Assembly: GCF_009914755.1 (NCBI RefSeq)
Contig: NC_060941.1
From: the human T2T-CHM13v2.0 reference genome, Homo sapiens
Direction: 5' to 3' (one strand)
Length of the DNA: 64,000 bases
Positions 55,878-62,748 of this stretch are shown piece by piece (positions within the stretch are counted from its first letter, which is position 1; each line of letters opens with the position of its first letter). The position numbers and the translations under genes were made by a program. Below the pieces are notes generated by a model. It saw only the letters and a program-made list of their open reading frames with translations, searched no databases and was not told the origin of the DNA.

Positions 55878-56873
55878 GTAGGTGGCATGCAAGCCTGGCC
55901 CCTCCTGCTTCCTGTGTCAGATCCTCAGTCCCAAGAGGGGTTACTGTCACCCCCTCATCCCCAGGCAGAGTCAAGGCTATTTGAAGATCATCCAAGCTGG
56001 CCCAGGGCTGCCTGATTGTGTGAGTTAGGATTTTTTTCTTCAGCAAGTGACTGAAAGCCCAACTAAAAACAGCTTAGGCAGGAGCCGAGTGCAGTGGCAT
56101 GCCCTGTAGTCCCACTTGCGTGGGAGGCTGAGGTGGGAGGATTGCTTGAGCCAGGAGTTTGAGTCCAGCCTGGGCAACATAGCCAGACTTTGTCTCATGA
56201 AAAACTGCCTTAGGCAAAAAGACTTTTTGTGGACTCCTGTGACTGATCTGCTTTGGGTGGCTTGTGATTTGGGGTTTGGCCGTGTCACCAGGATTCATCC
56301 CCTAGCTGTTTCCTTTGGGCTGGCTTCCTTCTCAGGCTCTGTGTGGTGGCCCCTGGTGGCTTAGGCTTGTCTCCCCATGACACCTTGTCTTTTGGAAGAG
56401 TCTGATTCCATGAGAATCGGGTCAAAGCTCCTGACTGGCCTGACGGTGGCATGCCCAGCTGGGAGCTTGGAGTGTGCCGAGTAGCCCAGCCCAGGCCTGC
56501 GTGCTCCCTCATGGAGCTGGGGGTGAGGGGCAAGGTGGGTAGGGTCGTCTTCACCCAGAGCAGAAATGCTGCGAGTGGGTGGGGTAGTGCCCCAGGAGAA
56601 GGTTGGGTGCAGTCACCAGGAGAAGGGTGAATGGGTGCTGTGTGGCAAGAAGAGCAGGCGTCTGCCACGCTGAGGACTTCAGGCCTGAGACATGGCCAGC
56701 ATGCAGGACAGAGGTTGGCCTGGAAGTCCTCTGGCTAGGAGTAGCCCCAGCTGGTGTGACTGATTCAGGTGGACGGCACAGGTGAAGGCGAGGCCACGTG
56801 GAGGTGGCTCCTCATTGGGGGCAGGACGCCTTCCTGTTGTGAGTCAGGTGCCGTTTTCTCTGTCCGTGTTCAG

Positions 56874-57063
56874 GCCGGAAGAACTCCCGCACAATGCTGC
56901 TCCCACTCCTGCGGAGGTTCCCAGAGCAGGTCCGAGTCTCCCTCTTTCACACGCCGCACCTCCGTGGGCTGCTTCGGCTCCTCATCCCTGAGCGCTTCAA
57001 CGAGACCATCGGCCTCCAGCACATTAAGGTGTACCTCTTCGACAACAGCGTCATCTTGAGCGG
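56874..57063 (+). CDS. PGS1: PGS1 coding exon 5 (first HKD motif, HIKVYLFD)
   Basis: Acceptor TGTTCAG|; GRKNSRTMLLPLLRRFPEQ...NETIGLQHIKVYLFDNSVILSG; donor |GTGAGT; 190 nt. Confidence 0.96.
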
Positions 57064-57648
57064 GTGAGTGCTTCCCACTGTCAGTGCTTTTGCCCTCCTG
57101 CTCTGCAGGCTGGAGGGCAGTGGAATAGGAACAGTGGGAAACCCGTTCCCCTCAGTCTTGGAGAACCTGCTTGTAGGTCTGGCTGCTGTGCACCCGCGGC
57201 ACCTCCCCGACACTGTCTCTGCCACTGAGGCTAGAATTCCCCGGGGGCTGACTGGAAGCCACTGTTGACAGGGCACTTAGTCTGTGCTGGCCACTCAGGT
57301 ATGTTGTCTGTTTCCACCCTCAGTGACCCTCTGTAGTATTTTCCTCACTGTGTACATGTGGAAACAGATCAGAGAGGATGAGTCACTTTGTCAGGTAGAC
57401 AGAGCCAGAAAAATAAACAAGAGTCAGACCTGGAAGTCCAGGTCCTTAGGCTGATAAATATGGGCCCTTTCACAGGCCCTCCCCTCGGCAGTGGGGCCAG
57501 GATTGGGTTGCTGGTGCTGAGAGAAAGCCCTTGATTGCATCCTTGCTCTGGGACTGTACCAGTGGCAGCTGTCACTTAGTGGGACAGAGAGAACAAACAA
57601 ACATGGGCGCTGATAAATAGCCCTGCATGGGCTGGGCGCAGTGGCTCA

Positions 57649-57906
<258 letters not shown>

Positions 57907-58052
57907 TCAAAAAAAAAAAAAAGCCCTGTGTGGTTAGTTGACTTTCTGTGTCTGCATCTCCTCTTCTCAGCTACACTGTCGGCTCCTTGAGAGGAGGAGG
58001 CTGTGGGTCACTTTGCTGTGTCACCTTGGATCAACTCTGGCTTTGTCTTTTG

Positions 58053-58791
58053 CACGTGTTCATTGCTGAGTAGCTATTTGTTAACTGCATCTTGACCTGA
58101 GTTTGTCACCCCCCTGCTAGTTCACCTGAGACCTGGGTCACCAGGACACGCTGCTGCATACCCTTGCCTGAGTCCTCCTCACCTGCATCTTCCCTCCCTG
58201 TAGTGCAAACCTGAGTGACTCCTACTTCACCAACCGCCAGGACCGCTACGTGTTCCTGCAGGACTGTGCGGAGATTGCCGACTTCTTCACGGAGCTGGTG
58301 GACGCGGTGGGGGATGTGTCCCTGCAGCTGCAGGGGGACGACACGGTGCAGGTGGTGGATGGGATGGTGCATCCTTACAAAGGTAGGGGCTGCCGCTGAC
58401 ACCCTTCTATGGCTGTGGGTGGGGTGGAGTGAGGGCCCGGGAGAGCACAACTCTAGGTGGTTCTGCCACAGGCATAGGGGACTTGGGTGGCAAGGCTTCA
58501 TTCTGCTTTTGTCCTTGAAGCCAGACAGATGTGACTCACTGACCATCAGTCATGCTCTGTGGGTGAGAGAGCCAGCCCAGAAAGGTGGGAGCTTGGGCTT
58601 GGGACTCCTACTCCTTGAGGCGGAGTCACTCAGGTTTGCACTACAGGGAGGGAAGACGCAGGTGAGGAGGACTCAGGCAAGGGTATGCAGCAGCGTGTCC
58701 TAGTGACCCAGGTCTCAGGTGAACTAGCAGGGGGGTGACAAACTCAGGTCAGGACGCAGTTAACAAATAGCTACTCAGCAATGAACACGTG
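58053..58791. repeat. 170-bp inverted duplication (arms 58053-58222 and 58622-58791, 399-bp spacer) bracketing PGS1 exon 6
   Basis: Manual reverse-complement alignment: no gaps and 4 mismatches (58089/58755, 58092/58752, 58142/58702, 58187/58657). Confidence 0.97.
58204..58382 (+). CDS. PGS1: PGS1 coding exon 6
   Basis: Acceptor CTTCCCTCCCTGTAG|; ANLSDSYFTNRQDRYVFLQDCAEIADFFTELVDAVGDVSLQLQGDDTVQVVDGMVHPYK; donor G|GTAGGG; 179 nt; completes the SGAN tail of the first PLD motif. Confidence 0.95.
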
Positions 58792-59815
58792 TGCCTGGGC
58801 GAGTGACCCAGAAGCCTGCCCTGCATCACAGGAAGCAACCAGGCCAGCAGCTGTTCGCCTAGGGCCCATTTCCCCAAGCCTATCACCTGGGCCTGTGGCT
58901 CCCAGCTCCCTTGAGCTCTGTGGCCCCCTGCCTGGAAAATGAAGTGGAAGAGCTCTCAGCTCTGCCCACTGGAACCAGGCAGGTTCTGGCGTGAGTGTTC
59001 TGGGGCATTTGCATTCCTGTGATTCCTGCGGCTGTGGCTCCCCCATGGCCTTTAGAGAGCTGCTGCTGGATTTGCAGCAGTGTCTGAACTTGGGGAGGAG
59101 GAGCTGAAGTTGGAACTTGTTGGGAGAAGAGCTCTCTGCGTCTTGTGGACCTAGAATGGAAGCATTTCAGTGGGCCGTCTGGTGGAAGCCCTGTCCTTGT
59201 GTCAGGGGAGCCCTGGGCCTCAGACCCCGACCGTGATGGTGTGATGCTCTGCCTGCCGCCATGCACTGTTCCTACTGTTGTATTTTGAATTTCATCTGTA
59301 AAGAGCTTGTGGAGCTCTGTATCTCTCTTGCTGAGTGCCTACCTAGCATCCTCAGCTTTGCCTTTTGGCCCAGAAAGCCTAAAATATTTACCATCTGACC
59401 CTTAAAGAAAATGTGTGTGGATCCCTGGTCTAATGTAACGGGCCAGGCATGGATATGAGAGAAAACAGGCCATGCTTAGGCCAGGATGAGAGCCAGCACG
59501 CTCCGAGCAGGAGCGGGGAGACTCGAGCCCAGCTGTGCTTGGGAGAATGAGTCCACAGAGAGGCTCAGGGTGTGCGCAGGGCCCCCCGGTGCTCCTCCCT
59601 CCGGCAGCCCTGTCCAGCATGTGGCAGTGTGACTCCTTTCTCCCCTGGAGGGTGTTGGCATCAACAGGCTAGACTCCTGCATGGGATGGTCCTTCTCTTT
59701 GTTCTGTAGCCCAGCCCTGAAAGGCACTGAGTGTCTGTTCCTGCCCCCAGCTCAGACCATGCAAGCCAGCAAGGATGACCTGGGACAGCCCTCCTTCCCT
59801 GTTTCACTTCCCTGA

Positions 59816-60244
<429 letters not shown>

Positions 60245-61084
60245 TAGGCGTGAGCCACTGTGCCCGGCCTGTTCTTATTTTTATTTTTTGCTTCCCTATA
60301 CTGTATTCTTGGTTTTATTCTGTTGTTTCTTTCCCCTGTCTTCCTGAGTTGGATGCTTAACTCATTAATTTTCAGCTTTGTCTTGTCTGATAATAGCATC
60401 TTTCCCTTCAGTGTGTCTGCATGGTCACCTGTCACCAGTGTCTTGTCCGAATACAAAAGGCACCCCATGCAGAGCCTGAGCCTGCCCGTTCTTCCTCTCT
60501 CTCAGGCACTGTCACTGCTGTGGGAAGCTTTCCCACATGGTGATGTGCTTATCCAAGGTGATGGCTTGCCCTGTGACCCCATCTGTGGAATACGCATGCT
60601 CCTTTTTTGGTTATACTTGCATGTCTTTATTTGACTGAGCTTCCTTATTGAAGTAGAACATGCACCCCGAGCACCAGTCGCAGGTGTACAGCCATGAACC
60701 TGCTGCTAGTGGACCTGCTTCCTGGAGGCCCCCCGTATGTCCCCCCCAAGGAATTATCCCAAAGGTAACCACTATCCTGATTTCTCTCCCTGTCAGTTTG
60801 TCTTGCCTGGTTTTGAGCTTGTTTGTAATTGGAATGATACGTCGACATGCCTTTCACTTCTGCCTGAGTGTGGGCTACTGTGGACCAGGCCCTTGTCTTG
60901 GGCAAACTATATCCCCAGAGGAGCCTCGCTCTGGGCTTGGGGTCCTGGGCCCACTCAGCGAGTGTTCAGTGAACATCCAGTTGTAGCGTCTGCACTTGCC
61001 TATCACATGCCCTGTCCCCTGAGCTGGGCAGAGTCCAGACCCTCCATTTCTCTTCCCTTCACTCTTCTTTCACGTCTTCCCCAG

Positions 61085-61606
61085 GGGACCGGGCCGAGTA
61101 CTGCAAGGCAGCCAATAAGAGGGTCATGGATGTGATCAACTCAGCCAGGACCCGCCAGCAGATGCTGCATGCCCAGACCTTCCACAGCAACTCTCTTTTG
61201 ACCCAGGAAGATGCAGCAGCTGCTGGGGATCGCAGACCAGCCCCTGACACCTGGATTTATCCGCTGATTCAGATGAAGCCCTTCGAGATTCAAATCGATG
61301 AGATTGTCACTGAGACCCTGTTGACTGAGGCGGAGCGCGGGGCAAAGGTCTACCTCACCACTGGCTATTTCAACCTGACCCAGGCCTACATGGACCTGGT
61401 CTTGGGCACTCGGGCTGAGTACCAGATCCTGCTGGCCTCACCAGAGGTGAATGGCTTCTTTGGGGCCAAGGGGGTGGCCGGCGCCATCCCAGCGGCCTAT
61501 GTGCACATCGAGCGACAGTTCTTCAGTGAGGTGTGCAGCCTGGGACAGCAGGAGCGGGTCCAGCTTCAGGAGTACTGGCGGAGGGGCTGGACGTTCCACG
61601 CCAAAG
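61085..61606 (+). CDS. PGS1: PGS1 coding exon 7 (ends inside the second HKD-type motif, TFHAKG); gene continues beyond the window
   Basis: Acceptor CTTCCCCAG|; DRAEYCKAANKRVMDVINS...TTGYFNLT...ASPEVNGFFGAKG...GWTFHAK; donor G|GTGCGC; 522 nt. All seven exons join in one open frame (1402 nt). Confidence 0.95.
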
Positions 61607-62195
61607 GTGCGCAGCGGCTGGCTGGAGGACGTTCCAGTGTGGGACAGCCACAAACATGGGCAGGGGGTGGGGAGCCCTGGCGCCTACCTGTTAGAGTGCT
61701 GTACTTCTCCCTTCCTACCTTCCCAGCAGCCCTTGCAGGCACATCATAGCTGTCCCATGACTTGGGGAGAGGCGAGCATTCATCTCCTCAAGGGAATTTT
61801 TTTTTTTTTTTTTTTTTGTGACAGTCTTGCTCTGTTTCCCAGGCTGGACTGCAGTAGCATGATCTCAGTTCACCGCAACCTCCACTTCCCGGTTCAAGCA
61901 GTCCTCCCACCGTAGCCTCCTGAGTAGCTGGGACTACAGGCGCGTGCCACCATGTCTGGCTAATTTTTGTATTTTTGTAGAGATGGGATTTTACCATGTT
62001 GCCCAGGCTGGTTTTGAACTCCGGAGCTCAAGTGGTCTGCCTGCCTTGCCTCCCAAGAAGTGAATTTCAGTTGTGTAAAATCCGTCTCTTTTATGCATCA
62101 AAGACTGTATATGGTCACATTATTTGGTGGCTGTGGTAAAGATGTGGTGACATAACCTCTCCTAAGAGATGGAGAGGAACATGCCTTAGCTGTGA

Positions 62196-62336
<141 letters not shown>

Positions 62337-62415
62337 TGACTAATTTTTTATTTTTAGTAGAGATTGGGTTTCTCCATGTTGGTCAGGCTGGCCTTGAACT
62401 CCTGACTTGAGGTGA

Positions 62416-62748
<333 letters not shown>

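What the first reader, a model, noticed from the sequence alone, without database searches (positions are those of the whole stretch)
58053..58791. Built-in antisense copy of the PGS1 exon 6 splice acceptor: 170-bp near-perfect hairpin, candidate splicing/NMD switch
Seen: 58622-58791 is the gap-free reverse complement of 58053-58222 (166/170). The left arm holds 151 nt of intron 5, including a branch-point candidate (CTCAC, A58181), the pyrimidine tract and the AG (58202-58203), plus the first 19 nt of exon 6. The right arm starts 239 nt after the exon 6 donor. It is not Alu-derived; it copies local intron and exon sequence. Exon 6 is 179 nt, so joining exon 5 to exon 7 shifts frame to a TAA at 61116-61118, about 490 nt before the next junction. 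Established: PGS1 performs the committed step of phosphatidylglycerol/cardiolipin synthesis; stems that bury a 3' splice site promote skipping; such premature stops trigger NMD. Inference: the acceptor must be committed before Pol II makes the right arm about 0.4-0.6 kb later. PGS1 output could therefore depend on elongation rate, helicases (e.g. DHX9) or ADAR. The ~2% arm divergence suggests a recent, possibly ape-specific origin or ongoing gene conversion. I do not know of a published description.
Basis: partly seen in the sequence, partly recalled or inferred. Interest (0 to 1): 0.9.

Follow-up and report, generated by a model that had tools for sequence, protein, structure and literature searches.

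The report
Hairpin burying PGS1 exon 6 acceptor
Human PGS1 carries a unique, near-perfect 170-base inverted copy of its own exon 6 splice acceptor in the next intron, which could hide that splice site in the RNA, but whether it changes splicing is untested.

Summary
58622-58791 is the gap-free reverse complement of 58053-58222, with 166 of 170 positions matching. The left arm is the last 151 nt of PGS1 intron 5 plus the first 19 nt of exon 6. It includes the branch-point candidate, the pyrimidine tract and the acceptor AG.

The arms are the only two copies in the whole assembly, and their flanks are unique, so this is not a transposable element. Homology stops sharply at both ends. All four differences are transitions and two are CpG decay, so the copy is old, not an assembly artefact. 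I infer an age of about 3-60 million years.

As RNA, the predicted stem is about -360 kcal/mol and pairs the acceptor once the right arm is transcribed. Skipping exon 6, or using the annotated alternative acceptor at 58262 just outside the stem, gives a premature stop in exon 7.

The most likely origin is one local inverted duplication by template switching. Its most likely effect is a constitutive, leaky drag on exon 6 acceptor use, not a regulated switch. No RNA data, primate genomes or population variants could be examined. Eight full-text searches naming PGS1 found no description of it.

The parts
58053..58222 (+). Left arm (the original): last 151 nt of PGS1 intron 5 plus first 19 nt of exon 6
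   Evidence: exon table from the hub
58622..58791 (+). Right arm: inverted copy of the left arm inside intron 6, starting 239 nt after the exon 6 donor
   Evidence: the only other copy in the assembly
58223..58621 (+). 399-nt loop: the remaining 160 nt of exon 6, its donor, and 239 nt of intron 6
58178..58182 (+). Branch-point candidate CTCAC (A58181), inside the stem and paired with 58662-58666
   Evidence: sequence; fit to the yUnAy consensus is recalled, not tested
58202..58203 (+). Acceptor AG of exon 6. A58202 sits in a UAG triplet paired with U, a context ADAR favours (preference recalled)
58204..58382 (+). PGS1 exon 6, 179 nt
   Evidence: hub table; frame checked
58260..58261 (+). AG of the annotated alternative acceptor (exon start 58262), 39 nt beyond the stem. 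Its use removes 58 nt and shifts the frame
   Evidence: hub table (exon 58262-58382 in other transcripts)
58659..58667 (+). 5' splice-site-like CAG|GTGAGG in the right arm (8 of 9 consensus positions), the mirror image of the branch-point region. No annotated use
58702..58702 (+). A in a UAG triplet opposite C58142: an A.C mismatch, the best predicted ADAR target in the stem
   Evidence: ADAR preference recalled
61116..61118 (+). TAA reached if exon 5 is joined to exon 7, 488 nt before the exon 7 donor
61133..61135 (+). TGA reached if the acceptor at 58262 is used, 471 nt before the exon 7 donor

Best explanation
A single local inverted duplication copied 170 bp spanning the intron 5/exon 6 boundary into intron 6, 399 bp downstream. 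The most likely cause is a replication template switch in a primate ancestor, and the two copies have since drifted apart neutrally. In the pre-mRNA the copies can form a very stable stem that covers the branch point, pyrimidine tract, AG and first 19 nt of exon 6.

Most transcripts probably escape. Splicing factors can bind the acceptor during the roughly 0.4 kb of transcription before the right arm appears, and the outer 117 bp can fold without touching the acceptor. The fraction that zips up completely is predicted to take one of three routes: the downstream acceptor at 58262, exon 6 skipping, or intron 5 retention. Each gives a premature stop. The stem is also predicted to be edited by ADAR.

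The net effect would be a constitutive, modest loss of productive PGS1 mRNA, not a regulated switch.

Shown here: the repeat, its uniqueness, its sharp ends, the fold energies and the reading-frame consequences. Inferred: the origin, the age, the in vivo folding and every splicing outcome.
For: The repeat is real and matches 166 of 170 positions. Only 2 places in the 3.1-Gb assembly match an arm, and the flanks match only themselves. The boundaries are sharp: flank alignments score 18-21 against shuffle maxima of 22-27. This fits one copying event.

All four differences are transitions. Two are CG in the right arm against CA in the left, which is CpG decay. That shows age and argues against an assembly artefact.

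The duplex is -359.7 kcal/mol. The unpaired probability of 58175-58205 falls from 0.13 with the transcript ending at 58621 to 0.033 from 58680 onward, while the alternative-acceptor region 58225-58261 stays near 0.2. With 58170-58210 forced open, the rest still folds at -446 kcal/mol, and the outer 117 bp alone give -240.6.

Premature stops follow in all four cases: exon skipping (TAA 61116), the 58262 acceptor (TGA 61133), intron 5 retention (TGA 57065) and intron 6 retention (TGA 58397).

The 58262 acceptor is annotated (hub table). An A3SS event of PGS1 exon 6 is reported in RNA-seq (PMC10548223, passage). Long-range stems masking splice sites have been shown by compensatory mutagenesis in Drosophila (PMC2724269, abstract and passages).
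Against: No RNA-level data were seen for this locus, so the hairpin may never form in vivo, or it may have a larger effect than I propose. The alternative acceptor could exist independently of the hairpin.

The older view is that co-transcriptional folding works within about 60 nt behind the polymerase (Eperon 1988, as summarised in PMC2724269). That would predict no effect for a 399-nt loop.

Thermodynamic folding already predicts the acceptor region to be mostly paired locally before the right arm exists (unpaired probability 0.12-0.16). The computed drop in accessibility is therefore less dramatic than it sounds.

No outgroup was available, so the template-switch origin and the age are inferences. 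No microhomology footprint could be shown.

The only PGS1 RNA-editing cluster I found in print lies in the last intron, not here (PMC12622134, passages).
Confidence: 0.5

Rival explanations
1. Regulated switch. The hairpin is a functional sensor. Acceptor commitment races against transcription of the right arm, so elongation rate, RNA helicases or ADAR set the ratio of productive to NMD-targeted PGS1 mRNA, and with it cardiolipin synthesis.
For: All structural prerequisites are met: the stem covers the whole 3' splice-site region. Both alternative outcomes are NMD-type. An sQTL for an NMD-annotated PGS1 transcript that colocalises with an HDL signal shows that unproductive PGS1 splicing varies between people (PMC10284136, passage), although the junction is not stated. 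A3SS of exon 6 differs between conditions in one study (PMC10548223).
Against: There is no evidence of regulation, conservation or selection. One of four substitutions keeps pairing, no better than the one-in-two expected for random transitions (my arithmetic). The arm divergence is what neutral drift would give. A young duplication in a housekeeping gene is more simply a tolerated accident. Acceptor use and most of the stem can coexist.
Confidence: 0.12
2. Inert in RNA. The duplication is real, but the full stem effectively never forms on nascent PGS1 RNA, because bound proteins, helicases and local folding win. It has no measurable effect on splicing and is only a neutral DNA-level scar.
For: The selected RefSeq transcript uses the 58204 acceptor (hub table). 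The classic result is that folding is limited to a short window behind the polymerase (as summarised in PMC2724269). The loop is 399 nt. No editing cluster at this site appears in the papers I could search. The substitutions look neutral.
Against: A -360 kcal/mol, 170-bp duplex is far stronger than the inverted Alu pairs (75-93% here). Those pairs are reported to be enriched around skippable exons and predicted to form stable stem-loops (PMC13019027, abstract and passages). Long-range stems do act in vivo (PMC2724269).
Confidence: 0.25
3. The hairpin's main product is something other than a splicing decision. Candidates are a nuclear ADAR/Dicer substrate giving small RNAs antisense to the intron 5/exon 6 junction, recoding edits in the first codons of exon 6, or help for back-splicing around exon 6.
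For: There are 79 adenosines in the arms, including six in UAG triplets. Five adenosines lie in the exonic 19 nt, codons GCA AAC CTG AGT GAC. A PGS1 circRNA, hsa_circ_0008410, exists in the literature, but its exon content is not given in what I read.
Against: No Rfam family, miRNA or otherwise, matches the arms even at E <= 1. The acceptor needed for back-splicing of exon 6 is inside the stem. No editing or small-RNA report for this site was found. A candidate miRNA from a mouse Pgs1 intron has no counterpart in the window.
Confidence: 0.06
4. Assembly artefact, or a variant private to the sequenced genome.
For: Only one assembly was available, so I could not check the arm in any other human genome.
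Against: An artefactual or newly arisen copy would be identical to its source. Here there are four differences, two of them CpG decay in the constrained original arm. The region is unique sequence.
Confidence: 0.03

Closest known systems
Short-range template-switch mutations in great-ape genomes (Walker, Loytynoja and colleagues, PMC7954356)
   Same: A nearby stretch is copied in reverse complement in one event, which creates a perfect inverted repeat with sharp ends and higher hairpin potential.
   Different: I could not confirm from the passages I read how long those events typically are. At 170 bp with a 399-bp spacer this looks larger than the 'short-range' events studied there. No ancestral sequence was available to place the four switch points, and no microhomology could be shown.
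Loop-out exon skipping by inverted intronic Alu pairs (PMC13019027; earlier work recalled)
   Same: Complementary sequences on either side of an exon pair in the pre-mRNA and loop it out. They are hominoid-age insertions and expected ADAR substrates.
   Different: The arms here are not transposable elements; there are 2 copies in the genome. They are 98% rather than 75-93% complementary. The left arm is the splice acceptor itself plus 19 nt of exon, whereas Alus are depleted within about 100 bp of exons (PMC13019027, passage).
Conserved long-range stems that mask splice sites (Drosophila boxes, PMC2724269; human conserved complementary regions, recalled)
   Same: Base pairing over more than 150 nt hides a splice site or loops out sequence, which changes splice-site choice.
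   Different: Those stems are short (9 nt or more), conserved and validated by compensatory mutations. This one is 170 bp, apparently young, and has neither conservation evidence nor mutational test.
Unproductive splicing coupled to NMD (AS-NMD)
   Same: The predicted alternative events give stops 471-488 nt upstream of the next exon junction.
   Different: No regulation or feedback is known here. Exon 6 skipping was not seen in anything I could read.

Membership tests
Transposable-element pair (Alu or other) | Many dispersed copies in the genome, or a match to a known repeat family | tested here: not met
   The right arm, the left arm with its upstream flank, and the intron 6 flanks each match only this locus in the 3.1-Gb assembly. 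The search skips very common words, but the arms were found intact. Rfam SRP/Alu matches lie at 57631-57910 and 60019-60268, outside the arms. RepeatMasker was not available.
Template-switch inverted duplication | Reverse-complement copy of a nearby sequence, with sharp ends and uniform identity | tested here: met
   170 nt gapless, 166 of 170 matching, no extension at either end.
Template-switch inverted duplication | Ancestral or outgroup sequence lacks the copy, so switch points can be placed | not testable with these tools
   No primate or other mammalian genomes are held; the own genome 'has no relatives here'.
Splice-site-masking RNA structure | Base pairing covers the branch point, pyrimidine tract, AG or donor | tested here: met
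   In silico only. The stem pairs 58053-58222. The unpaired probability of 58175-58205 is 0.033 once the transcript reaches 58680.
Splice-site-masking RNA structure | Disrupting the stem changes splicing and compensatory changes restore it; the structure is detected in cells | not testable with these tools
   No experiment or probing data were available. Eight full-text searches naming PGS1 found none for this site (circRNA search).
Splice-site-masking RNA structure | Covariation or selection to keep pairing | tested here: inconclusive
   Only one genome. Of four arm differences, one is a G.U wobble and three are A.C mismatches, compared with one in two expected for random transitions. This shows no sign of selection, but four sites give no power.
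AS-NMD switch | The alternative event puts a stop more than about 50 nt upstream of a downstream exon junction | tested here: met
   Skipping gives TAA 61116-61118. The 58262 acceptor gives TGA 61133-61135. The exon 7 donor is at 61606.
AS-NMD switch | The event occurs in cells and is regulated | tested here: inconclusive
   The 58262 acceptor is annotated (hub table), and an exon 6 A3SS is reported as differential in microglia (PMC10548223). I found no report of exon 6 skipping.
ADAR substrate | Long, nearly perfect intramolecular duplex | tested here: met
   170 bp, -359.7 kcal/mol.
ADAR substrate | Observed A-to-I sites | tested here: inconclusive
   The only PGS1 editing cluster found in print is in the last intron (PMC12622134). 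REDIportal could not be queried.
miRNA / hairpin small-RNA locus | Match to a described RNA family | tested here: not met
   Rfam search of 56500-61700 at E <= 1: none of the 16 matches overlaps the arms.

The most novel reading that the evidence does not exclude
A primate-specific, self-derived antisense copy of a splice acceptor acts as a kinetic gate on an essential mitochondrial lipid enzyme. Whenever Pol II outruns spliceosome commitment, or helicase or ADAR activity is low, the 170-bp stem closes over the exon 6 acceptor. Transcripts are then diverted to the 58262 acceptor or to exon skipping, and so to NMD. ADAR acting on the same stem can destroy the acceptor AG (A58202 lies in a UAG triplet) or recode the first codons of exon 6. 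This would tie cardiolipin synthesis capacity to transcription speed and the double-stranded-RNA machinery in apes only.
Probability: 0.1. Interest if true: 0.8.

Novelty: new member of a known kind. Interest (0 to 1): 0.45.

Why it matters
PGS1 performs the committed step toward phosphatidylglycerol and cardiolipin (established knowledge, also stated in PMC12622134 and PMC10284136). A built-in structure that lowers productive splicing would therefore be a lineage-specific brake on a housekeeping mitochondrial pathway.

The locus is also a clean natural test of an old question. Can a very stable long-range duplex, transcribed about 0.4 kb after a splice site, beat co-transcriptional commitment of that site in vivo? 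Here the arms are unique sequence and map unambiguously, unlike Alu pairs. The outcomes are distinct junctions: exon 5 to 58204, exon 5 to 58262, and exon 5 to exon 7. Existing nascent-RNA, NMD-inhibition, editing and RNA-proximity data could answer it.

If the answer is 'no effect', that is informative too. It would show that a constitutive exon tolerates a 170-bp perfect antisense of its own acceptor.

Tried and rejected
1. Transposable-element origin. Rejected: whole-assembly searches with the arms and flanks found only this locus.

2. A larger, older inverted repeat with a homogenised core. Rejected: gapped local alignments of the outer and inner flanks score 19-21, within shuffle ranges (95th percentile 20, maxima 24-26).

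3. Microhomology or direct-repeat footprints at the junctions. I noticed GACTCCTACT at 58217 and 58603, CTCCTTGAG at 57983 and 58611, and AGTGACCCAG at 58702 and 58802. Their scores of 18-20 do not exceed the shuffle maxima of 22-27, so I dropped them. A CACGTG palindrome sits at the outer ends of the arms and could hide up to 6 nt of microhomology. That cannot be tested without an outgroup.

4. Known RNA family in the arms. None found.

5. Candidate miRNA reported from a mouse Pgs1 intron (PMC3012074). It has 0 matches in the window with up to 3 mismatches.

6. Confirming that the exon 5/6 junction encodes a PLD-type HKD motif. Pfam gave 0 families for the exon 5 fragment and only a sub-threshold, unrelated match for the exon 6 fragment. 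A PF13091 search of the own genome gave 6 matches, none in PGS1. The motif reading therefore rests on recall only.

7. The PGS1 editing cluster and sQTL in PMC12622134. The cluster is in the last intron, not here.

8. Identifying the sQTL junction of PMC10284136.

9. Earlier findings of this scan.

10. The exon content of the circRNA hsa_circ_0008410 is not given in the two reviews I read.

Full report
**What is there.** The window is human chr17 (T2T-CHM13) and the region lies in PGS1. The repeat finder on 57000-60000 reports one outstanding inverted pair: 58053-58222 and 58622-58791, 170 nt, 98% complementary, 399 nt apart. My script confirms 166 of 170 with no gaps, and shows that gapless extension fails at once at both ends.

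From the sequence and the hub's exon table, the left arm is the last 151 nt of intron 5 plus the first 19 nt of exon 6. It holds a branch-point-like CTCAC (A58181, 22 nt from the acceptor G), a good pyrimidine tract and the AG at 58202-58203. The right arm begins after 239 nt of intron 6.

**More than chance, and not a transposable element.**
- Folding 58033-58811 as RNA gives -538.4 kcal/mol, against -315.9 +/- 9.1 for 20 shuffles (z = -24.5).
- The two arms alone give a duplex of -359.7 kcal/mol.
- Across the whole 64-kb window, the 25 longest inverted pairs within 5 kb are otherwise 75-93% complementary (24 of 25). Their size and identity, and the SRP-like Rfam matches nearby, mark them as Alu pairs. 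This pair is the only one above 93%.
- A search of the entire 3.1-Gb assembly with the right arm finds 2 places, the two arms.
- Searches with 58383-59100 and with 57911-58222 find only the locus itself and the partner arm.
- No Rfam family matches inside either arm at E <= 1; there were 16 matches in 56500-61700, none overlapping.

The copy is therefore made of local unique sequence.

**Origin and age.** Homology is uniform inside the arms and stops sharply at their ends. Gapped alignments of the outer flanks, the inner flanks and three direct-repeat candidates score 18-21, within the range of 200 shuffles each (maxima 22-27). This pattern fits a single copying event of about 170 bp.

The known process that produces exactly this is replication template switching. 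[quoted passage not shown] I could not place switch points or show microhomology, because no outgroup sequence is available.

The four differences are all transitions. At 58089 and 58187 the right arm keeps CG where the left arm has CA, which is CpG decay.

Four differences in 170 sites, with recalled human rates of 0.5-1 x 10^-9 per site per year and Poisson limits, give roughly 3-60 million years, with a centre near 12-24. This is my inference, not a tool result. It allows an ape-specific or a catarrhine origin.

It also argues strongly against an assembly artefact or a private new variant, because either would be identical to its source. The divergence is what neutral drift gives, so gene conversion need not be invoked.

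In RNA the four sites are three A.C mismatches and one G.U wobble. Random transitions in a helix give a wobble half the time, so there is no sign of selection to keep pairing. Four sites, however, have no statistical power.

**Consequences for the transcript, in silico.**
- Exon 6 is 179 nt.
- The hub table lists an alternative exon, 58262-58382. Its AG (58260-58261) lies 39 nt beyond the inner end of the stem. Using it removes 58 nt and gives TGA at 61133-61135.
- Retention of intron 5 or intron 6 stops at 57065 or 58397.
- In partition-function folds of nascent transcripts starting at 57911, the mean unpaired probability of 58175-58205 is 0.13 when the transcript ends at 58621, and 0.033 from 58680 onward. 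The alternative-acceptor region 58225-58261 stays near 0.2.
- A caveat: the acceptor region is already predicted to be largely paired in weak local structures before the right arm exists (0.12-0.16). Predicted accessibility alone is therefore a blunt measure.
- If 58170-58210 is forced open, as bound U2AF or U2 snRNP would do, the rest still folds (-446 kcal/mol). The outer 117 bp alone are worth -240.6 kcal/mol and the 53 bp covering the splice signals -112.4. Hairpin formation and acceptor use are thus not mutually exclusive.

**Other features of the stem.**
- The arms hold 79 adenosines, six of them in UAG triplets. One is A58202 of the acceptor AG. Another is A58702, which sits opposite C. 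From recalled ADAR preferences these are the likeliest editing sites, and editing A58202 would destroy the AG.
- Five adenosines lie in the exonic 19 nt.
- The right arm mirrors the branch-point region, so it carries CAG|GTGAGG at 58659-58667. That matches 8 of 9 donor consensus positions, against 7 of 9 for the authentic exon 6 donor. No annotated transcript in the hub table uses it.

**What the literature adds.** I used all ten full-text searches; eight named PGS1 and none described this hairpin.

| Search terms | Papers holding all terms |
|---|---|
| PGS1 + 'inverted repeat' | 7 |
| PGS1 + 'exon 6' | 8 |
| PGS1 + ADAR | 13 |
| hsa_circ_0008410 | 22 |
| PGS1 + sQTL | 8 |
| PGS1 + NMD + 'exon skipping' | 2 |
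| PGS1 + dsRNA | 14 |
| PGS1 + hairpin + intron | 4 |

For most of these papers I saw only the listing. The remaining two searches, on template switching and on hairpins at splice sites, did not name PGS1. Relevant passages:
- PMC10548223 lists 'A3SS of exon 6 of PGS1' as differential in microglia.
- PMC10284136 reports a hepatocyte-like-cell sQTL for an intron of an NMD-annotated PGS1 transcript, with a credible-set SNP in a canonical splice site, colocalising with an HDL signal.

For mechanism:
- PMC2724269 summarises the older view that folding is limited to about 60 nt behind the polymerase (citing Eperon 1988). It then shows by compensatory mutagenesis that stems spanning more than 150 nt mask splice sites in Drosophila.
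- PMC13019027 reports inverted Alu pairs enriched around skippable exons, especially those with weak acceptors, and Alu depletion within about 100 bp of exons.

**Best reading.** This is a real, old but not ancient, local inverted duplication. It is most likely a template-switch product that happens to be antisense to the exon 6 acceptor.

Because the selected transcript uses that acceptor, most transcripts must commit before or despite folding. I expect a constitutive leak into the 58262 acceptor, exon skipping or intron 5 retention, all of them NMD-type, together with ADAR editing of the stem. I give this 0.5.

The rivals are:
- an RNA-inert scar (0.25);
- a different main product, such as editing, small RNAs or a circRNA (0.06);
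- an artefact or private variant (0.03).

**What is missing.** I had no primate or mouse orthologues, no population variants, and no RNA-seq, editing or structure-probing data. The supplementary tables that might name the sQTL junction were closed.

Noticed in passing
window 57461-57589 (+): An H/ACA snoRNA of the SNORA30/SNORA37 family lies in PGS1 intron 5, about 465 nt upstream of the left arm. Rfam RF00415 scores 119.6 bits against a gathering score of 90. It agrees with the hub's LOC124900399. Its release depends on processing of the same intron whose acceptor the hairpin covers.
   Followed up: partly
window 57631-57910 (+) and 60019-60268 (-): Alu-like elements (partial Metazoa_SRP matches) sit in opposite orientation in intron 5 and intron 6. 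Exon 6 is therefore also flanked by an ordinary inverted Alu pair. Further pairs link 57706-57922 with 62520-62736 and 57750-57893 with 62212-62355, at 83%. Any test of the hairpin must separate their loop-out effects from it.
   Followed up: no
window 58659-58667 (+): The right arm contains CAG|GTGAGG, a donor-like site matching 8 of 9 consensus positions, better than the authentic exon 6 donor at 7 of 9. It is the mirror image of the branch-point region. No transcript in the hub table uses it.
   Followed up: partly
window 57040-57063 and 58204-58222 (+): The end of exon 5 encodes HIKVYLFD... and the first 19 nt of exon 6 encode (G)ANLSDS. From memory this looks like the first HKD motif of phospholipase-D-type enzymes split across the junction. 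Any ADAR editing of the exonic part of the stem would then hit codons next to a catalytic motif. Pfam on the separate exon fragments and a PF13091 genome search did not confirm this.
   Followed up: partly
window 58053-58058 and 58786-58791: The outer ends of both arms are the palindrome CACGTG (an E-box sequence). The exact outer breakpoint is therefore ambiguous by up to 6 nt, and microhomology could be hidden there.
   Followed up: no
window 58085-58093 and 58183-58191: The two CpG-decay differences fall in the same 9-mer, CTGCATCTT, which occurs twice in the left arm. The right arm has the CG form at both positions. Probably a coincidence.
   Followed up: no
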